From assembly GCF_006345805.1 (NCBI RefSeq), contig NC_043021.1, positions 1,178,001-1,242,000 of the forward strand: a DNA stretch of 64,000 bases, read 5' to 3'. A program made the position numbers and the translations under genes. Shown one piece after another: positions 3,001-37,657 of this stretch (position 1 is its first letter; each line of letters starts with the position of its first letter). The notes under the pieces were generated by a model that saw only the letters and a list, made by a program, of their open reading frames with translations, ran no database searches and was not told the origin of the DNA. The stretch is from Octopus sinensis. Taxonomy: Eukaryota.

Positions 3001-5230
3001 AATGTCAGTGGAGTTGAATATGAGGATATAAGCTGGTCAGTGGTAGGATTGCAAAATGTCAGGGGAGTTGAATATGAGGATATAAGCTGGTCAGTGGTAG
3101 GAAGGCAAAATGTCAGGGGAGTTGAATATGAGGATATAAGCTGGTCAGTGGTAGGATGGCAAAATGTCAGGGGAGTTGAATATGAGGATATAAGCTGGTC
3201 AGTGGTAGGAAGGCAAAATGTCAGGGGAGTTGAATATGAGGATATAAGCTGGTCAGTGGTAGGATGGCAAAATGTCAGGGGAGTTGAATATGAGGATATA
3301 AGCTGGTCAGTGGTAGGATTGCAAAATGTCAGGGGAGTTGAATATTAGGATATAAGCTGGTCAGTGGTAGGATGGCAAAATGTCAGGTGAGTTGAATATG
3401 AGGATATAAGCTGGCCAGTGGTAGGATGGCAAAATGTCAGGGGAGTTGAATATGAGGATATAAGCTGGTCAGTGGTAGGATGGCAAAATGTCAGGGGAGT
3501 TGAATATGAGGATATAAGCTGGTCAGTGGTAGGATTGCAAAATGTCAGGGGAGTTGAATATGAGGATATAAGCTGGTCAGTGGTAGGAAGGCAAAATGTC
3601 AGGGGTGTTGAATATGAGGATATAAGCTGGTCAGTGGTAGGATGGCAAAATGTCAGGGGAGTTGAATATGAGGCTATAAGCTGGTCAGTGGTAGGATTGC
3701 AAAATATCAGGGGAGTTGAATATGAGGATATAAGCTGGTCAGTGGTAGGATGGCAAAATGTCAGGGGAGTTGAATATGAGGATATAAGCTGGTCAGTGGT
3801 AGGATGGCAAAATGTCAGGGGAGTTGAATATGAGGATATAAGCTGGTCAGTGGTAGGAAGGCAAAATGTCAGGGGAGTTGAATATGAGGATATAAGCTGG
3901 TCAGTGGTAGGATGGCAAAATGTCAGGGGAGTTGAATATGATGATATAAGCTGGTCAGTGGTAGGATGGCAAAATGTCAGGGGAGTTGAATATGAGGATA
4001 TAAGGTGGTCAGTGGTAGGATGGCAAAACGTCAGGGGAGTTGAATATGATGATATAAGCTGGTCAGTGGTAGGATGGCAAAATATCAGGGGAGTTGAATA
4101 TGAGGATATAAGCTGGTCAGTGGTAGGATGGCAAAATGTCAGGGGAGTTGAATATGATGATATAACCTGTTCAGTGGTAGGATTGCAAAATGTCAGGGGA
4201 GTTGAATATGAGGATATAAGCTGGTCAGTGGTAGGATGGCAAAATGTCGGGGGAGTTGAATTTGACGATATAAGCTGGTAGCTGGTAGGATGGCAAAATG
4301 TCAGGGGAGTTGAATATGAGGATATAAGCTTGTCAGTGGTAGGATGGCAAAATGTCAGGGGAGTTGAATATGATGATATAAGCTGGTCAGTGGTAGGATT
4401 GCAAAATGTCAGGGGAGTTGAATATGAGGATATAAGCTGGTCAGTGGTAGGATTGCAAAATGTCAGGGGAGTTGAATATGAGGATATAAGCTGGTCAGTG
4501 GTAGGATGGCAAAATGTCAGGGGAGTTGAATATGAGGATATAAGCTGGTCAGTGGTAGGATGGCAAAATGTCAGGGGAGTTGAATATGAGGATATAAGCT
4601 GGTCAGTGGTAGGATGGCAAAATGTCAGGGGAGTTGAATATGAGGATATTAGCTGGTCAGTGGTAGGATTGCAAAATGTCAGGGGAGTTGAATATGATGA
4701 TATAAGCTGGTCAGTGGTAGGATGGCAAAATGTCAGGGGAGTTGAATATGAGGATATATGCTGGTCAGTGGTAGGATGGCAAAATGTCAGGGGAGTTGAA
4801 TATGAGGATATAAGCTGGTCAGTGGTAGGATGGCAAAATGTCAGGGGAGTTGAATATGAGGATATAAGCTGGTCAGTGGTAGGATGGCAAAATGTCAGGA
4901 GAGTTGAATATGAGGATATAAGCTGGTCAGTGGTAGGATTGCAAAATGTCAGGGGAGTTGAATATGAGGATATAAGCTGGTCAGTGGTAGGATGGCAAAA
5001 TGTCAGGGGAGTGGAATATGAGGATATAAGCTGGTCAGTGGTAGGATTGCAAAATGTCAGGGGAGTTGAATATGAGGATATAAGCTGGTCAGTGGTAGGA
5101 TGGCAAAATGTCAGGGGAGTTGAATATAAGGATATAAGCTGGTCAGTGGTAGGATGGCAAAATGTCAGGGGAGTTGAATATGATGACATAAGGTGGTCAG
5201 TGGTAGGATGGCAAAACGTCAGGGGAGTTC
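1..5230. repeat. 54-bp tandem minisatellite, about 97 units, runs off the window start
   Basis: Consensus GAATATGAGGATATAAGCTGGTCAGTGGTAGGATGGCAAAATGTCAGGGGAGTT repeated head-to-tail. It produces the 18-aa repeat ORFs on both strands. Confidence 0.98.
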
Positions 5231-7413
5231 AGGAATAACTTTAGCATGAAAACTGATCGTCTTCATGCGTTGAGATGCTTTCTTGGGAATGTCTCATTCT
5301 TTAGTAATGGTAGAAGACTGAAATGGCATCTTAGGCGCATGCTGGGATTGTGTGGGAGTAGTCGATATGAAAGGGGTTGTGAAAGTCACGCAAACCTTCT
5401 CAGACAGCTTCAACTGTTCTGAAGTATGAACTGGATTTCCCAAATTTAACAATGTGGACATGAAAAAAACGCATTGCAGCTTTGAAGTAATAGCTAGAAA
5501 GTGTATGTTTTTTAAGGTCAATGAATAAGGATAATGCAGAGTGTCCGCAATTTCAGCCTATCGGCTACACAAGCCCACTTAAGTAGAACATAGAAGCCGG
5601 GTCCCGACTTTTGGGTATATGTCTCTGCGCCTTTCTCATCGTACAAAGCATTCAGGAAGCGGATAGGGAAATAGTTACGTGGCAGCTGATGGAGAAAATG
5701 TAGCGTTCTGAAGATGGTCATTAGAAGGAAATCAATTCACCAAAGACCTAGCGACCGAAAGTAAATGATTAGAAAGAAGAAATAGGGAGAAAATTAGACG
5801 AATCAACTAGAAAATGCCGAAAATGGCTCTCAACTATTTCCTTCGACGTGAAACATGATGATAGCATTTTAAGTGTTAAAGTGTTAAAGTTTCCTCTATA
5901 ACACGAGGAAACGAAAAGTGTTCGAAGGGTTTGCGTTTGTGGAGGCACGACGTTAGAAGAAAAACACAATCCGGGCCCTGATGAACCGGGACAAGTGCAT
6001 ACTACTCGATTCCAGACAGGTGTGTGTGGCTTTCTAGAAGCGCGTTGAGGGAAGAAGTGACTGAGTTGAGGAAGAAGTGCCTATCCAGATGGCCTGGGTT
6101 CTGGTCCTGTCCGGACATCTAACTCGATACGCATGGAGTTGAAGTTATGAATAGAGTACTGAGTGTTACCCACAGATGAATTTAGAGAAAACTATCCTTC
6201 AAAGAGGTGGTGAACAACGACAGTGTGTCCATCTTCAATAACTCCCCTTCCTCCTCCCCTCTTCTTCTCCCCCCTCTTCCTCCCCCTCTTCTTCTCCCCC
6301 CTCTTCCTCCCCCTCATCAAATACCTTGCCGTTTCATTTTAACTCCTAACGTCCTGAGTTGAAATTCCACCGAATACAGCTTTGCCTTTGTTCTGGCAGT
6401 CAATAAAATAAAGCCCTAATCAAGTAGGGGAGCCGATGGAGTCGACTCATCTCTTCTCCTCCATAAATTCCGCGTCTTGTGCCTATGTTCTGCATCTGGC
6501 CTCTTTGGTGGAGCTGTCGTCTGGAGTCAAGAGAAAACTACAATTGGGCACCCTGCATATCCTGATCTTCCCTCAACGCAATCGTTGGAAGTTCTGCAGA
6601 GAAGGAGCGACGATGCACTCGGAGAAATTCTACGCATCGACAACGACGGACTGGCACTTTTGTTGCGGAGGACTCTCGTGTCGGGGACTACCATGGATAA
6701 TTTCTATAGAACTCCTTAATTTGGAAATGCTACCGAAGGTTTTACCTTTCCAGACAAACACGAAAGTCTTGTTAAACGGGACTGCTCTAGATGCATACAG
6801 ATCTACGAACTCTCTCTGCATGCACAGAAGCAGTGACCGATTATTACTAACTTGTGGAGTGACATCGAATAACTATTGCCATGTGTAGGGTGGATCCGGC
6901 TGTAACCAAATTCGCGAAGATCATCCCTCCAACCTCCTTTAGTAAGAGAGGGAAAGAAGTTTTTGTCCGTCGGTGGCGATGGCGAAAGAGGTTATGTGGT
7001 AGACCAGAATGAGAGGACAAAGGAGAAACAATTTTCTCTTCAGCCAAGACTTCATCTATTTTCCAAGCTCCATCTGAAAAGAAGATGAGGCGAAGACGGA
7101 AGTGTCTTCCAGGAATTTATCAAAAGACGGGTGACTGAGGCGCAAATGGTTTCAGTGGATGCAGCTGCTCTGAGTAAATTAGAGACCGAACCAACAAGCA
7201 GAAGATTGGTTGATATTTAATCTGTGAGGATTCCTGATTGGTCCTAGTTGTACCTCTTCCTCTTTCGAGAGGACTCTGTTATTTGTTGACTCTGTTTGCT
7301 TTTTTCCCGCCCCTCCTCTTTTCTTTCCTTCTCTTCAACTGCTTTTATTGAATATTCAAATTACAACTTGTTTTTCTAATATCCTGTTCAGTCAATGCCT
7401 TTCTAACACCCTT

Positions 7414-33120: not shown

Positions 33121-33918
33121 TATTTATTTTTGACCCCGAAAGGATGAAAGGTAGACCTCAGCGGAATTTGAACTCAGAACGTAGCGGCAGACGAAATACC
33201 ACTAAGCCTTTCGCCCGGCGTGCTGACGATTCTTTTCTATTCTAGGCACAAGACTCGAAATTTTGGGGGAGGGCGCTAGTCGATTAGATCGACCCCAGTA
33301 CGCAACTGGTACTTAATTTATCGACCCGAAAGGATGAAAGGCAAAGTCGACCTCGGCGGAATTTGAACTCACAACGTAAAGACAACCGAAATACCTATTT
33401 CTTTACTACTCACAAGGGGCTAAACACAGAGGGGACAAACAAGGACATGAATGCGGATTAAGTCGATTACATCGACCCCAGTGCGTAACTGGTACTTATT
33501 TAATCGACCCCGAAAGGATGAAAGGCAAAGTCGACCTCGGCGGAATTTGAACTCACAACGTAACGGCAGACGAAATACCTATTTCTTTACTACCCACAAG
33601 GGGCTAAACACAGAGAGGACAAACGGATTAAGTCGATTATATCAACTCCAGTGCGTAACTGGTACTTATTTAATCGACCCCGAAAGGATGAAAGGCAAAG
33701 TCGAACTCGGCGGAATTTGAACTCAGAACGTAACGGCAGACGAAATACCTATTTCTTTACTACCCACAAGGGGCTAAACACAGAGAGGACAAACGGATTA
33801 AGTCGATTATATCAACTCCAGTGCGTAACTGGTACTTATTTAATCGACCCCGAAAGGATGAAAGGCAAAGTCGAACTCGGTGGAATTTGAACTCAGAACG
33901 TAACGGCAGACGAAATAC
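33121..33918 (-). mobile_element. Head-to-tail array of five family B tRNA-SINE units (three ~170-185-bp units carry a Tx1-like 3' tail)
   Basis: Repeated TCGACCCCGAAAGGATGAAAGGCAAAGTCGA...GGAATTTGAACTC (B box) units; junctions at 33395, 33579 and 33749 all follow GAAATACC. Confidence 0.88.
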
Positions 33919-36900
33919 GAATTTCTTTATTGCCCATCGGGGGCCAAACATAGATATGGGCAGTACAACTGATGGGATCAGTGAATCGATATTATTTTAC
34001 ATAAATGTGACTTTAAAAATAAAATACAATACATAAAAAATCGAATGGAATACGCAGTACAAAGCAATACAAATGAAACGATGATCAGGTTACGCTCCGA
34101 TCCCACAAGCCCCGATCTACCGCTGATACCTTTTTTTTTCCTTTTTTTTCCGTCTATTCACACGGTTCCTTGCACGCACAACACTCGTGCAACATGCTTC
34201 CATCTCTTTTGGAACGTACACTCTGACAGACACCTCTTCTCCAGCCACAGTTTCCTTTTCAAATGAAAAGAAAAAACAAATCGTAAATTGTGACCAGAGA
34301 TAAAGTTGCCTGTCTTAATTCCTTTTATCCTAGTCTTCCATACAGCCTCTTTTGCTATTGCTACAACCGTGAGAAAACAATTCTTACCTTCGTTCGTTAG
34401 AACTCCCGGTGGGTCAATTTTTATAATTGACTCAGTCGACAGTTGTACTCTTCCTTCGCCGGACAACAGGTGTTCAGCATAAGCCCACATTTCAGTTATA
34501 TCCGGACACTGAACAATAGCGTGAGGGACGGTTTCCCTGTCCCCCCCCCCGCATCTTGGACAGGTCGGCGACTGACGTATACCATGTCTTGCGAGCTTAT
34601 CCCAAACGGGCAAGGCACCTCTGTAGCATTGCCAGGTTAAGGACTTTTGGAAGTTGTCCAACGTTCTCAACCCGAATGTACGATGAAACAGGCTGTCCAG
34701 TTGAATAAATCCGAGACCTAGAGTCGACCCCAGGCCATCGTCACATTCAGACTCTACCAACCCACTATATAAAATCCGTGTGGAACCCCCACCACTGGCG
34801 TTGCCCGAGCGCCGGAACAGCAAGAGGGCCTTACGGCACTCTTTATGCCACTCACTCGACCTCGGTCTACGAGAACACCAGGCTCCCTGTTCGCAAAAAC
34901 TCTTGAACTCAGGGAACATTTGTCTGGCTAGCGGAGACCAGACCCGTTCACTATCCAGGAGAATCCAGAGGTGCCTCAACCTCAACGCATGTCTGCGCAT
35001 CATTAACCAAGGCATCCCTAAACCTCCCTTTAAAGGCTTTTGACAGCAGACAGAGCGTTTCACAAGTGGCGACCTGCCCTTCCACAAAAAGTGAAAGAGC
35101 TGTCTCTCCAACCTGATCAACCACGAATCCGGACAGGGTACGACGGTCAAGCGGTAAGTAATGACCGATGCGATAAACACATTGGCCACCCCCGCCCTCC
35201 CTTTCAGGGATAGCCACCGTCAAGACCAGGTCTTGACTACTTCAGCCACCCTGCTCAATATCTCCGTCCAGTTCTCTATCGGGAGGCCTGGTCCAAACCA
35301 AACTCCCAGCAACTTAACCGGTCCCTCCGTCCAGCGCCCAACAATGCTGTCTGAAGGCATCGACTTGCCAACCCAGGTGCCGAGCTGCAAGCCGACTGAC
35401 TTTTCCCGGTTAATCTTTGCTCCTGCCACCTCCTCGTAAGCCTCAATAGTCTTACCTACTTCACGTAGGCGTGCTACTGTGGTTACACTGATAGTGATAT
35501 CATCCGTGAAAGCCGTAACAAACTCCTCTAGTCCTGGTTCTCTCGGGATGCCACTCAACCTTCGCAGTAATGGCTCGAGAGCCATCACATACAAAAGTGG
35601 TGTAAGCGGACATCCTTGACGAACCGAGCGTTTGATGCAGAATGGCTTCGAAAGGAAACCGTTCACCCGAACTATCGAGTCAATGTTGTGGTACAAAGCG
35701 ATAAACCACCTGAGGAAGCCAAGACCCAGGCCAAACCGCGCAAGTACAGTCGCTAGGTATCGATGGTCAACCCTATCAAAAGCTTTAGACTGGTCCAAAT
35801 GCACCAATGCCCCACCTTTGCCATATTTATTACCAACCCTCTCTATGGTATAGCGAATAAGATGGAGGGTATCCTGAATGGTATAGCCTGGGATGGCACA
35901 TGTCTGTGCCTCCCCGACTATACCATTCGCGACACGCGCCAACCTTTTTGCTAGAACCTTAGCCAAAATCTTCACTTCTGCGTTTAACAGAGTGATGGGC
36001 CTGAAATTTTCTAGAACGTCCCCCTTGTCCGGGTCCTTTCTGACCAACGTCAATACTCCCCGGCGCACAGATCTGGGGATAAACCCATTCTGTTTCCAGT
36101 TCGCGTACACGTCAGTCAGTAGTTGCCCGAACAAGTCTGGCATACATTTATACAGCTCGTACGGAAGACCATCAAGTCCCGGCGACTTACCCGCTTTACA
36201 ATCGGCCAAAGCCTCCATCACCTCCTCAGGCGTGATTGGCCCTTCGCAAGACTCCGCATCCGATCCCGAGAGGCACGGCAGCCCGGCAAGAAAGTCCTCG
36301 AGGGCTCTCCCACCACCAGGACCGCCGTCACCCCCGAACAGCTGGGCGAAGTACTCCCGAAAGACCTCACACATTTTCTCGGGTTCGTTTACAAAGACAC
36401 CATTTTGATTCGTCAAAGACCGAATAGAGGAACTATTTTCTTGCCGAGCTTCCACCACTCGGGCCCATCCAGCGGCCTTGATTCCTTCACTTCCCATTGC
36501 ACGTAACTTAGCTCTGGCAATACTTCCCATGTGGTGGGCTTCAAGATGCTGGTTTAACTCCAGTCTTTTCACCCTCGCTTGGTCTGCATTACCAGTCCTC
36601 CAGGCTTCTTCTAGTTCCTTATCTAGACCATCTCCTATTTTACGTCCCTTCTTAGCTAAACTTATGCTAAACCTAATAGACTCATATTTGATGGCTCTTT
36701 TTAGGGCGTACCACCATTTGTTATTAATGATGGTACCTGTTAATGCCCTCTGTATTAACATCTTGATCCGCTTTCTGTACTCCTCAATCGCCAAAAGGGA
36801 CGTATTGAGTTTCCAGTAGCCAGATCCCTGTCTATGCAACTTATCTACCGTCAGTTTACAGGTAACCATCTTGTGATCACTGTAGCTGACTAGAAAAAAC

Positions 36901-36995
36901 TGTGGACACTTAACTATGGACTTATCTTTTTCTCTAATTAAAATCCTATCTAGATATGTTCTGGTAGACCCGTCACTATTTGACCACGTCCAACC
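33919..36995 (-). mobile_element. 5'-truncated L1/Tx1-clade LINE: APE C-terminus, RT and CCHC, with one in-frame stop
   Basis: 36995-36870 translates GWTWSNSDGSTRTYLDR...SDHK. Then KSPGLDGLP, FRPITLLN, LDQSKAFDRV, RQGCPL, FTDD; TGA at 35220-35222 is in frame with ORF 34158-35189 (CPRC...H...C). AATAAA at the 3' end. Confidence 0.95.
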
Positions 36996-37078
36996 GGAAT
37001 TTGAACTCAGAACGTAACGGCAGACGAAATACTGTTAAGCATTTCGCCCGGCGTGCTAACGTTTCTGCCAGCTCGCCG
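36996..37078 (-). mobile_element. Intact family B SINE tRNA head (A and B boxes) abutting the LINE 5' truncation
   Basis: Minus strand GGCGAGCTGGCAGAAACGTTAGC...GAGTTCAAATTCC. Confidence 0.85.
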
Positions 37079-37158
37079 CTACATAATATATAAAATAGTA
37101 ATGATAATAACAACAACAACAACAACAACAACAACATAACAACAACAACAACAACAAC

Positions 37159-37218
<60 letters not shown>

Positions 37219-37231
37219 GATAATGATAATC

Positions 37232-37454
37232 TTTTTTACTTTAGTTACAAGGCGCCAAATTTTTTGGGAGGGGTTAAGTCGATTAGATCGACCCCAGTAC
37301 GGAATTAGTACTTAATTTATCGACCCGGAAGGATGAAAGGCAAAGTCTTCCACGGCGGAATTTGAACTGAGGACATAGCAGCTGACGAAATATCGCTAAG
37401 CATTTCGCCCGGCGTGCTAACAATTCTGCCAGCTTGCCGCTATATAGTATATAA

Positions 37455-37485
<31 letters not shown>

Positions 37486-37657
37486 TAATAATAATTATTA
37501 TTATTATTATTTCTTTACTGCCCACAAGGGGCTAAACATAGAGGGGACAAACAAGGACAGACGAAGGTATTAAGTCGATTATATCGCCCCCAGTGCGAAA
37601 CTGGTACTTTATTTATCGACCCCGAAAGGATGAAAGGCAAAGTTGACCTCGGCGGAA
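37232..37657 (-). mobile_element. Two further family B SINEs (37232-37440 near full length; 37510-37657 truncated, Tx1-type tail) within (TAA)n
   Basis: Same core GAAAGGATGAAAGGCAAAG with two different tail types. Confidence 0.8.

What the first reader, a model, noticed from the sequence alone, without database searches (positions are those of the whole stretch)
33882..37078. Tx1-like LINE inserted inside a SINE tRNA head with an exact 37-bp flanking duplication
Seen: GGAATTTGAACTCAGAACGTAACGGCAGACGAAATAC occurs at 33882-33918 and 36996-37032, bracketing the 3.1-kb LINE. The rest of the SINE head follows at 37033-37078. Established: Tx1-clade elements are often sequence-specific (U2, 5S, tRNA spacers, microsatellites, other transposons). 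Inference: this family targets a site between the A and B boxes of an abundant SINE, using it as a high-copy safe haven. The element is young, with only one in-frame stop over roughly 930 codons.
Basis: partly seen in the sequence, partly recalled or inferred. Interest (0 to 1): 0.75.

Follow-up and report, generated by a model that had tools for sequence, protein, structure and literature searches.

The report
LINE retrotransposon targeting its partner SINE
A 5'-truncated copy of an L1/Tx1-type jumping gene sits at one fixed spot inside a very abundant short repeat (SINE), the spot where about nine in ten of this LINE family's copies end genome-wide, and the SINE, which shares the LINE's tail, likely uses the same spot to pile up into headless tandem arrays.

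Summary
The 37-mer is exact at 33882-33918 and 36996-37032, around a 3.07-kb minus-strand LINE remnant with one internal stop in 946 codons. The 37-mer is not a private duplication, though. It is the SINE's own sequence: 3 exact copies in the window and 19,012 in the genome.

The main inference is strongly supported. Of 153 exact LINE-tail 22-mers in the 2.7-Gb genome, 135 are followed by NGTATTTYR. Five of 11 exceptions fetched are the same SINE site with mutations, and five more (four of these plus L020) are LINE-LINE tandems. LINE ends are 98.4% alike between copies, while the SINE flanks are 86.6% alike, so the flanks are older, independent SINEs.

The full-length element is 5.36 kb (ORF1 with a zinc knuckle; ORF2 with APE, RT and zf-RVT domains). 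Its nearest solved relative is human L1 ORF2p. Placement in Tx1 proper could not be tested.

New points:
- The LINE's 5' end carries a 15-nt copy of the target.
- The real duplication in full-length copies is short; the window's 37 bp is unusual.
- The SINE shares the LINE's tail.
- 21,727 of 51,559 exact SINE tails abut the same site, giving headless tandem units such as those at 33395-33918.

Verdict: a real new variant of target-specific Tx1-type LINEs.

The parts
37033..37078 (-). 5' part ('head', 46 nt) of the target SINE, ending ...GCTTAACA just before the insertion site
   Evidence: Sequence read. The same head sequence, with subtype differences, precedes 33 of 34 canonical full-length LINE 5' ends. 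Not recognised as tRNA by ARAGORN or Rfam.
36996..37032 (-). Upstream copy of the 37-mer (SINE positions about 47-83; starts GTATTTCG, ends with the B-box-like GAGTTCAAATTCC)
   Evidence: Exact match. This is the SINE's own sequence, with 19,012 exact copies genome-wide.
36993..36995 (-). Three filler bases (GGT on the minus strand) at the 5' junction of the truncated LINE
   Evidence: Window junction compared with the full-length copy in L040. LINE homology starts at TGGACGTGG.
33920..36992 (-). 5'-truncated LINE copy (3,073 bp). It lacks ORF1 and the first 190 residues of ORF2, which is most of the endonuclease.
   Evidence: aligns to ORF2 residues 191-1134 of L040 at 95.3% amino-acid identity.
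34158..36992 (-). ORF2 remnant (end of the APE domain, RT, zf-RVT). Internal stop at 35220-35222, terminal stop at 34158-34160.
33920..34157 (-). LINE 3' UTR, ending ...GGGCAATAAAGAAATT with no poly(A). Its last roughly 100 nt are homologous to the SINE's 3' part.
   Evidence: Alignment A1: 43 invariant columns of 116 across five sequences. Pairwise 50-55 identical bases of 89-94 aligned. In the last 32 nt, 25 are identical, counted by eye.
33919..33919 (-). Junction base N (C here). In 30 of 30 full-length copies it equals the base before GTATTTCG upstream. Here it does not (A upstream).
33882..33918 (-). Downstream copy of the 37-mer, which is the start of headless SINE unit A
33749..33918 (-). 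Headless SINE unit A (170 bp with its junction base): 37-mer, body and LINE-like tail ...GTAGTAAAGAAATA, then G
33579..33748 (-). Headless SINE unit B (170 bp), near-identical to unit A
33395..33578 (-). Headless SINE unit C (184 bp, the common length)
33229..33394 (-). Basal SINE remainder with a different, older-type tail (...CCTAGAATAGAAAAGAAT). Presumably the rest of the SINE that was first hit.
   Evidence: The same tail type is seen in the intact SINE at 37236-37441.

Best explanation
The element at 33920-36992 (minus strand) is a 5'-truncated copy of a 5.36-kb L1/Tx1-type LINE family. In at least 140 of 153 exact-tail copies in this genome, the family's 3' end abuts one fixed position of an abundant SINE (N|GTATTTCG, between the SINE's 5' part and its B-box-like motif). 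This is most likely the result of sequence-specific target-primed reverse transcription into the SINE.

Shown:
- The junction position is constant.
- The SINE flanks are old and differ from locus to locus, while the LINEs are young.
- The base before GTATTTCG is duplicated on both sides of full-length copies.
- Full-length copies begin with GTATTTCGTCTG(C/T)CG, a copy of the target that belongs to the LINE. It stays constant while the true downstream target varies.
- Truncated copies join irregularly: a 37-bp duplication plus 3 filler bases here, 6 bp in L009, at most 1 bp in L071, and a 28-nt loss in L050.
- The site is re-used. A SINE unit lies directly upstream of one LINE, there are LINE-LINE tandems, and this window holds a stack of three headless SINE units plus the LINE.

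Inferred:
- The APE endonuclease would nick the bottom strand opposite N|GTATTTCG.
- Reverse transcription would start at the ...AAAGAAATT end, perhaps helped by a few read-through bases that pair with the nicked strand.
- For full-length copies, the cDNA's end (the complement of the 15-nt target copy) would anneal to the target's top strand and seal the 5' junction.
- Each insertion would leave a usable site on its 5' side, so later insertions stack next to the SINE 5' part.
- The partner SINE, whose last roughly 100 nt resemble the LINE's 3' end, would be mobilised by the same machinery into the same site and lose its 5' part by homology-guided joining. That would build the headless 170-187-bp tandem units.
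For: 1. Genome-wide exact counts: the LINE tail 22-mer occurs 153 times and is followed by NGTATTTYR 135 times.
2. Twelve exceptions lie among the first 100 listed. Of these, 5 are the SINE site with point changes or a small duplication. Five are followed by (G)GTATT plus the 5' UTR of another LINE. One has a non-SINE flank beginning GATATT. One is a different element with the same tail.
3. BLAST sample: 29 of 30 loci, the window's own included, have GTATTTCG...SINE after the tail.
4. Pairwise identity over 28 copies: LINE last 400 bp 98.4%, LINE first 400 bp 98.5%, downstream SINE 150 bp 86.6%.
5. SINE-level duplications lie outside the SINE+LINE composite: an 18-nt repeat in L040, 12 nt in L031 and about 13 nt in L009.
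6. Thirty-four of 40 long loci carry the canonical 5' end. In 33 of these 34, SINE head sequence precedes it.
7. The junction base agrees upstream and downstream in 30 of 30 copies. The full 16-nt repeat agrees in only 7 of 29, although the LINEs differ by only 1-2%.
8. The upstream GTCG/GCCG variant follows the LINE tree: 6 changes against 9.6 in shuffles, and 21 of 2000 shuffles do as well.
9. Domains: Exo_endo_phos, RVT_1 and zf-RVT in ORF2, and zf-CCHC in ORF1. Human L1 ORF2p matches at E 7e-64 over residues 6-868, against R2 at 2e-20 over the RT only.
10. SINE counts: the exact tail 25-mer occurs 51,559 times. It is followed by GGTATTTYR 20,311 times and by HGTATTTYR 1,416 times.
Against: 1. 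Five of 9 truncated or near-full copies (L008, L033, L072, L077, L079) have no SINE 5' part at their 5' junction or in the upstream sequence held (2.5 kb; 475 bp for L008). No inverted LINE segment was found for the four tested, L008 not among them. Their 5' sides are unexplained.
2. In the window copy the junction base disagrees (A upstream, C downstream), unlike 30 of 30 full-length copies.
3. All the non-SINE flanks seen (L020, L055, L057-L061) begin with (N)GTAT or GATAT. A short motif plus the sheer number of SINE copies could therefore account for part of the specificity.
4. The junction base also shows some signal on the LINE tree (5 changes against 7.25; 54 of 2000 shuffles). Part of it may therefore be carried in the RNA.
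5. The pattern counts use exact words only. Diverged copies are not counted, and 6 of the 18 exceptions were not looked at.
6. No biochemical or RNA evidence was available.
Confidence: 0.85

Rival explanations
1. Hitch-hiking or composite element. The LINE and its SINE flanks would spread together, by segmental duplication or as one long transcript running from the SINE 5' part to the SINE tail. The constant flank would then be inheritance, not targeting.
For: - L031 and L032 share 9.4 kb and are one duplicated locus.
- The downstream unit is nearly always a 184-bp unit with the LINE-like tail.
- The 15-nt stretch at the LINE 5' end is inherited with the LINE.
Against: - The downstream SINE is 86.6% alike between loci, against 98.4% for the LINE.
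- SINE 5' parts upstream differ at many positions and fall into at least two abundant SINE subtypes. GCGTAGCC has 18,035 exact copies and GCTTAGCG has 23,728.
- Outer flanks are unique.
- 5'-truncated LINEs (window, L009, L071) still have a SINE 5' part upstream. A truncated composite could not.
Confidence: 0.03
2. For this window only: the two 37-mers are not a target-site duplication. They would be the starts of two neighbouring units of an existing headless SINE array. The LINE would have landed at a unit boundary and removed about 133 bp (the body and tail of one unit).
For: - The flank is such an array.
- The 37-mer is the SINE's common form, with 19,012 exact copies, so identity is uninformative.
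- The junction base C matches neither the upstream A nor a clean duplication.
- A target deletion is seen in L050.
Against: - Only 1 of 34 canonical full-length LINE copies has a SINE tail rather than a SINE 5' part before its site. Yet tail-adjacent sites (21,727 exact) are about half as common as head-adjacent ones (41,763 exact). A landing at a unit boundary is therefore the rarer event.
- At a unit boundary the expected junction base is G, and C is seen.
- One event with a 37-bp staggered cut is simpler than an insertion plus a deletion.
Confidence: 0.2
3. The specificity is shallow. The endonuclease or the priming step would need only a short motif (about GTATT, up to GTATTTCG). The SINE would take nearly all insertions simply because it holds most copies of that motif.
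For: - Non-SINE flanks of LINE and SINE copies begin with GGTAT, GGTAA, GATAT or TAT.
- The partner SINE is far less specific: 42% at the site, that is 21,727 of 51,559.
Against: - The LINE shows 88-92% occupancy of the SINE site.
- The LINE shows a strong preference for sites preceded by the SINE 5' part over the equally GTATTTCG-bearing tail-adjacent sites (33 of 34). This suggests that sequence or structure upstream of the nick is read too. The site is the right arm of the inverted repeat CGAAATGC-6 nt-GTATTTCG, read directly.
Confidence: 0.2
4. The headless SINE arrays arise mainly by unequal crossing-over or replication slippage after a single founding junction, not by repeated targeted insertion.
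For: - Units A and B of the window are near-identical and share a rare 170-bp form.
- Published accounts of SINE tandem arrays invoke unequal recombination (PMC11481361 and PMC10702118, passages read).
- Long uniform runs exist, for example C1:8970284-8971808 with the same TTCA variant at six junctions.
Against: - The unit boundary is exactly the LINE's insertion site.
- Arrays mix unit types and ages, and the LINE sits nearest the SINE 5' part.
- LINEs and SINE units also stack on each other (L035, L020, L057-L060).
- 21,727 junctions spread over the genome would need very many founding events in any case.
Confidence: 0.3

Closest known systems
Tx1-Mar LINEs and SINEU SINEs of crocodilians (Kojima 2015, PMC4494074; abstract and sections 14, 15 and 17 read)
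   Same: - A Tx1-group LINE and the SINEs it likely mobilises share a preferred target inside another interspersed repeat.
- Occupancy is similar: 313 of 347 SINEU-3 copies are flanked by the target.
- Tandem SINE copies sandwiching a duplication are explained there by sequential insertion.
- 5'-truncated copies were used there, as here, to exclude hitch-hiking.
   Different: - The target there is a Mariner DNA transposon. Other Tx1 families in that paper target LTR elements, Harbinger, microsatellites and snRNA or 5S genes.
- Here the target lies inside the partner SINE itself, so the SINE targets its own family and loses its 5' part on entry.
- The scale differs: 21,727 exact junctions.
- The LINE here carries a 15-nt copy of the target at its 5' end.
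Tx1L in Tx1D of Xenopus laevis, and Keno, Mutsu, Dewa, Kibi and Koshi (recalled from memory; only the target list in the Fig. 3 legend of PMC4494074 was seen)
   Same: APE-type, L1-related LINEs with strict target sequences in multicopy DNA.
   Different: None of the targets named in that legend is a SINE. Membership of this octopod family in that clade was not tested here.
R2 and R1 rDNA-specific LINEs (recalled from memory; PDB R2 entries matched only in the RT)
   Same: - One fixed site in a multicopy target.
- Target-derived sequence at the RNA ends is thought to guide precise junctions.
- A high share of full-length copies.
   Different: R2 uses a restriction-like endonuclease and a single ORF. 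This element has an APE endonuclease and two ORFs, and is far closer to L1 ORF2p (E 7e-64 against 2e-20).
SINE tandem arrays and SINE-derived satellites (bivalves, PMC11481361; squamates, PMC10702118; passages read)
   Same: Head-to-tail SINE-derived units in tandem.
   Different: - Those papers report 2-3% of SINEs in arrays, or satellites made from SINE portions, and propose unequal recombination or chance re-insertion.
- Here 42% of exact young tails sit at one internal site that is also a LINE's specific target. This points to retrotransposition as the builder.
Human LINE-1 ORF2p (PDB 8uw3, 8sxt, 9k6g, 8c8j)
   Same: Endonuclease and RT are colinear over residues 6-868 (E 7e-64).
   Different: Human L1 ends in poly(A) and has only a loose target motif. 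This family ends in ...AAAGAAATT and is site-specific.

Membership tests
L1 superfamily non-LTR retrotransposon (L1/Tx1 group) | ORF2 with an N-terminal APE-type endonuclease followed by a reverse transcriptase | tested here: met
   L040 ORF2 (1134 aa): Exo_endo_phos at residues 23-230 (E 6.2e-10) and RVT_1 at 514-754 (E 9.4e-29). The window copy keeps only the last part of the endonuclease.
L1 superfamily non-LTR retrotransposon (L1/Tx1 group) | C-terminal cysteine-histidine motif after the RT (Pfam zf-RVT) | tested here: met
   Window copy: E 2e-8, 35.2 bits against a cut-off of 27.5. L040: E 1.1e-5, 26.4 bits, just under the cut-off.
L1 superfamily non-LTR retrotransposon (L1/Tx1 group) | Closer to L1 ORF2p than to other solved LINE proteins | tested here: met
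   L1 ORF2p matches at E 7e-64 over the endonuclease and RT. R2 proteins match at 2e-20 or weaker, over the RT only.
Tx1 clade proper | RT phylogeny places the element with Tx1, Keno and related families rather than with L1 proper | not testable with these tools
   No labelled Tx1 or L1 clade references were returned. The best named hit was a hypothetical protein of Argonauta hians at 59% identity. The atlas gave unnamed LINE clusters. A 2026 repeat survey of an octopus lists 13 active L1-Tx1 families without sequences (PMC13282606, passages).
Tx1 clade proper | Sequence-specific insertion into a multicopy target | tested here: met
   135 of 153 exact tails are followed by NGTATTTYR, and at least 140 of 153 lie at the SINE site.
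Tx1 clade proper | ORF1 with a CCHC zinc knuckle (a feature recalled from memory) | tested here: met
   zf-CCHC at E 7.9e-5, 23 bits against a cut-off of 20.8, residues 335-351 of L040 ORF1.
tRNA-derived SINE | 5' part recognisable as a tRNA with A and B boxes | tested here: inconclusive
   ARAGORN finds 0 tRNA genes in the window. No Rfam tRNA match up to E 10 in 36900-37500, which holds one intact and one split SINE. A B-box-like GAGTTCAAATTCC and possible A-box-like stretches are seen by eye, against consensus motifs recalled from memory.
tRNA-derived SINE | 3' part derived from the partner LINE's 3' end | tested here: met
   Alignment A1: 43 invariant columns of 116. Pairwise 50-55 identical bases of 89-94 aligned. 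Both end in TAAAGAAAT.
tRNA-derived SINE | Dispersed copies flanked by target-site duplications | tested here: met
   Repeats of 18 nt (L040), 12 nt (L031) and about 13 nt (L009) flank the whole SINE.
Target-site duplication of the window's LINE copy | Identical direct repeats abutting both ends of the insertion and present once in the empty site | tested here: inconclusive
   The 37 nt are identical. However, the repeat is common SINE sequence, the junction base differs, 3 filler bases are present, and no empty site was available.

The most novel reading that the evidence does not exclude
A LINE and its partner SINE both home to one position inside that same SINE. Every insertion recreates the site on its 5' side, and for the LINE a built-in 15-nt target copy seals the full-length junction. 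On this reading retrotransposition itself, rather than recombination, produces more than 20,000 headless SINE-SINE junctions and satellite-like arrays. Each hit also splits the promoter region of a SINE copy, so the pair feeds on its own family and spares unique DNA.
Probability: 0.5. Interest if true: 0.75.

Novelty: new variant of a known kind. Interest (0 to 1): 0.62.

Why it matters
Target-specific LINEs are models for how mobile DNA finds safe landing sites, and they are studied as tools for site-directed gene insertion. Here the target is a 2.7-Gb genome's most abundant repeat type, with tens of thousands of natural target copies and many recent, nearly identical insertions. That allows the sequence rules of target choice and of 5' junction formation to be read directly from the genome. 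It also offers a concrete, testable route from interspersed SINEs to tandem (satellite-like) DNA, a link that published work on SINE arrays leaves to unequal recombination. Finally, it may explain part of the unusual SINE load and repeat structure of octopod genomes.

Tried and rejected
- **tRNA identity of the SINE 5' part.** ARAGORN on the whole window found 0 genes. Rfam at E up to 10 on 36900-37500 gave no tRNA, only four weak matches to unrelated families.
- **Clade labels.** The 5.8-billion-protein search gave no Tx1- or L1-labelled relatives. The atlas gave only unnamed LINE-like clusters.
- **Earlier findings of this scan.** None exist for this genome.
- **RNA evidence.** No RNA holder was listed for the LINE 5' region.
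- **Contigs from public runs.** Contigs of four runs were laid on the LINE-SINE junction. Contigs with the LINE tail run 10-30 letters into GTATTTCG... in three runs. None has the 31 letters on both sides that the tool asks for, so this is not counted as bridging. Loose ends at the site show both SINE head subtypes.
- **Twin priming.** For L033, L072, L077 and L079, no inverted LINE segment lies in the last 1.5 kb before the junction. No SINE 5' part lies within the upstream sequence held for these four and L008 (2.5 kb; 475 bp for L008), in the same orientation as the LINE.
- **A LINE-borne 'GCGTAGCC' head.** This was considered and rejected. That subtype has 18,035 exact copies, far more than there are LINEs.
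- **A second hot spot in the SINE 5' part (AGAAACG).** It is real but minor for this tail: 279 of 51,559.
- **Literature.** Searches for a LINE that targets a SINE, or for octopus SINE arrays, found no such description in the held library. Repbase Reports and subscription journals are not covered.


Full report
**Observation**

The window is G000:C25:1178001-1242000 of a 2.7-Gb genome. The nearest named protein relative of the LINE comes from the octopod Argonauta hians.

No shuffle of the window gives any match. The stretch between the two copies reads on the minus strand. It holds one frame of 946 codons with one internal stop (35220-35222) and a terminal stop (34158-34160). It matches RVT_1 and zf-RVT. 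The 46 nt at 37033-37078 complete the SINE's 5' part. The description is therefore correct.

- The 37-mer is also exact at 33712-33748 and near-exact at 33542 and 33163. The downstream flank is a tandem array of SINE units that lack the 46-nt 5' part (period 170). Read on the minus strand, the order is: 5' part, 37-mer, LINE, unit A, unit B, unit C, then the rest of an older SINE with a different tail.
- The 37-mer is common SINE sequence, with 19,012 exact copies in the genome.
- The last roughly 100 nt of the LINE align with the last roughly 100 nt of the SINE units. Both end in TAAAGAAAT.

**Is the position a target?**

A search of the genome with the LINE's last 242 nt scored 40 of 316 candidates and returned 30 loci. 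In 29 of these 30, the window's own among them, the tail is followed at once by GTATTTCG... and more SINE. In the thirtieth (L020) it is followed by GTATT and the 5' UTR of another LINE.

Exact-word counts over the whole genome give 153 copies of the tail 22-mer. Of these, 135 are followed by NGTATTTYR. Twelve of the 18 exceptions lie among the first 100 listed. Eleven were fetched and L020 was already in hand.
- Five are the SINE site with a point change or a small duplication.
- Five are LINE-LINE tandems.
- One has a non-SINE flank (GATATT...).
- One is another element with the same tail.
- Six exceptions were not examined.

So at least 140 of 153 copies lie at the SINE site.

**Targeting or hitch-hiking?**

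- Among 28 copies, the LINE's last and first 400 bp are 98.4% and 98.5% alike. The 150 bp of SINE downstream are only 86.6% alike.
- The SINE 5' parts upstream differ at many positions. They belong to two abundant SINE subtypes, with 18,035 and 23,728 exact copies.
- Outer flanks are unique.
- In L040, L031 and L009, a repeat of 12-18 nt flanks the whole SINE outside the LINE.
- Truncated LINEs in the window, L009, L071 and L050 still follow a SINE 5' part.

These points fit insertion into pre-existing SINEs. One pair of loci (L031 and L032) is a true segmental duplication and counts once.

**The element**

Forty loci were extended. Thirty-four carry the canonical 5' end, and the full length is 5,356 bp in L040. 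Copies of the second batch are 98-99.7% identical to L040.

In the first batch, 2 of 20 copies have both long frames open. In L040, ORF1 (536 codons) has a CCHC knuckle. ORF2 (1134 codons) has Exo_endo_phos, RVT_1 and zf-RVT.

The best solved relative is human L1 ORF2p (E 7e-64 over residues 6-868). R2 proteins match only in the RT. This places the family in the L1 superfamily. Assignment to Tx1 proper rests on architecture, the lack of poly(A) and site specificity. No labelled reference sequences were available for a tree.

The window copy aligns to ORF2 residues 191-1134 at 95.3% identity. It was therefore dead on arrival.

**Junction anatomy**

In full-length copies the order is: SINE 5' part, N, GTATTTCGTCTG(C/T)CG, CACATGTG...LINE...AAAGAAATT, N, GTATTTCG...SINE.

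The base N (C or G) agrees on both sides in 30 of 30 copies and goes with the head subtype. It is therefore target-derived and duplicated. The whole 16-nt repeat, in contrast, agrees in only 7 of 29 copies. The upstream version is nearly always one of two LINE-typical forms, while the downstream version varies as old SINEs do.

The upstream GTCG/GCCG variant tracks the LINE tree (6 changes against 9.6 expected; 21 of 2000 shuffles do as well). The LINE thus carries a copy of its target at its 5' end, and the true duplication is between 1 and about 9 nt.

Truncated copies join irregularly:

| Copy | 5' junction |
|---|---|
| Window | 37-nt duplication plus GGT filler |
| L009 | 6-nt duplication |
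| L071 | At most 1 nt |
| L050 | 28 nt of the SINE 5' part lost |

Five others (L008, L033, L072, L077, L079) have no SINE 5' part upstream at all. These remain unexplained.

The window's 37-bp repeat is therefore an outlier. Its junction base also disagrees (A against C). An alternative, that the LINE landed in an existing array and deleted one unit, cannot be excluded. It is less likely, because only 1 of 34 full-length copies follows a SINE tail rather than a SINE 5' part, although tail-adjacent sites are common.

**The SINE**

The exact SINE tail 25-mer occurs 51,559 times. It is followed by GGTATTTYR 20,311 times and by HGTATTTYR 1,416 times. So 42% of these young SINE ends abut the LINE's target inside another SINE, without a 5' part of their own. 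Runs with 184-189-bp spacing are seen in the listings.

In the sampled 293 kb, other SINE ends are followed by GGTAT, GGTAA or TAT-rich sequence. A minor second site in the SINE 5' part (AGAAACG) takes 279 of 51,559.

**Mechanism**

Shown: a fixed 3' junction, a short duplication, a LINE-borne 5' target copy, re-use of the site, and a shared tail and shared site for LINE and SINE.

Inferred:
- The APE endonuclease nicks the bottom strand opposite N|GTATTTCG.
- Reverse transcription starts at the tail, possibly aided by a few read-through bases that pair with the nicked strand.
- The cDNA end anneals to the target's top strand through the 15-nt copy. For the SINE, it would anneal through the SINE's own sequence, which would explain the loss of the 5' part.
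- The site regenerated upstream takes the next insertion, so the newest element lies next to the SINE 5' part, as the LINE does here.

The site is the right arm of the inverted repeat CGAAATGC-6 nt-GTATTTCG. Together with the LINE's preference for head-adjacent sites, this hints that sequence or structure upstream of the nick is recognised.

**Comparison with what is known**

The nearest published case is Kojima 2015 (PMC4494074; abstract and three sections read). There, Tx1-Mar LINEs and SINEU SINEs share a Mariner transposon as target, and tandem SINEs are put down to sequential insertion. Other Tx1 targets listed there are LTR elements, Harbinger, microsatellites, U2, U5, 5S and satellites.

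SINE arrays in bivalves and squamates are explained by unequal recombination or chance re-insertion (PMC11481361 and PMC10702118, passages). An octopus repeat survey lists active L1-Tx1 families but never uses the word 'target' (PMC13282606, passages).

Six searches of the held library found no description of a LINE that targets a SINE. Repbase Reports and subscription journals were out of reach.

**Verdict**

The finding is real and the inference of targeting is right. It is a new variant of a known kind. The self-targeting SINE arrays and the 5' target copy are the parts most worth following up.

Noticed in passing
L039:495-4020 (minus orientation as used); also L034, L043: A different element of about 1.75 kb stands in tandem, with tails 1,749-1,750 bp apart. 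Its tail is ...CCCCTAGTGGGTAATAAAGAAATA, and each tail is followed by AGAAACGTCACC.... The last unit abuts position ~17 of the SINE 5' part (AGAAACGTTAGCAC) just upstream of a full-length LINE. It looks like another non-autonomous rider that uses a second site.
   Followed up: partly
genome-wide; examples L040, L041, L043, L044: A second insertion hot spot lies in the SINE 5' part (GGC|AGAAACGTTAGC). SINE-like tails are followed by AGAAAYR in 279 of 51,559 exact tails. Some of these are simple AAGAAATA slippage.
   Followed up: partly
L057-L060: A second LINE subfamily (tail context ...ttctgtccatttctatg...) occurs as LINE-LINE tandems. Its own 5' end also begins with a target-like GGTATTGCGTCTG, followed by a different 5' UTR.
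   Followed up: no
window 37083-37230 and 37236-37441: An intact SINE of the older tail type (...CCTTGTAACTAAAGTAAAAAAG) lies on the minus strand. It ends in a long (ATT)n/(GTT)n microsatellite that runs up to the 5' part of the SINE hit by the LINE. This SINE type seems to end in microsatellite, not in the LINE-like tail.
   Followed up: no
SINE positions ~33-54, e.g. window 37025-37046 (minus strand): The insertion site is the start of the right arm of an inverted repeat: CGAAATGC, a 6-nt spacer, then GTATTTCG (7 of 8 bases complementary). New junctions (GAAATA-GG-TATTTC and GAAAT-TCGT-ATTTC) are again palindromic.
   Followed up: no
L033:5100-5251 (oriented): The 4.15-kb LINE copy in L033 is joined upstream to sequence that reads like the reverse transcriptase of an LTR retrotransposon, not to a SINE 5' part. 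This reading is by eye only.
   Followed up: no
L031 and L032 (C1:26.65 Mb and C19:15.22 Mb): Two loci on different contigs share about 9.4 kb including the LINE and both flanks. This is a segmental duplication or an assembly duplicate.
   Followed up: no
runs X1, X15, X17, X20: Near-identical words of the LINE 5' region are held by runs under four different coded organism labels. The family, or very close relatives, may therefore be shared by several species.
   Followed up: no
L068, L078, L081: Young copies (99% identical to L040) carry internal rearrangements. In L078, positions 1-1197 are joined to 4973-5356. L081 has two internal deletions. L068 has extra sequence near position 590.
   Followed up: no
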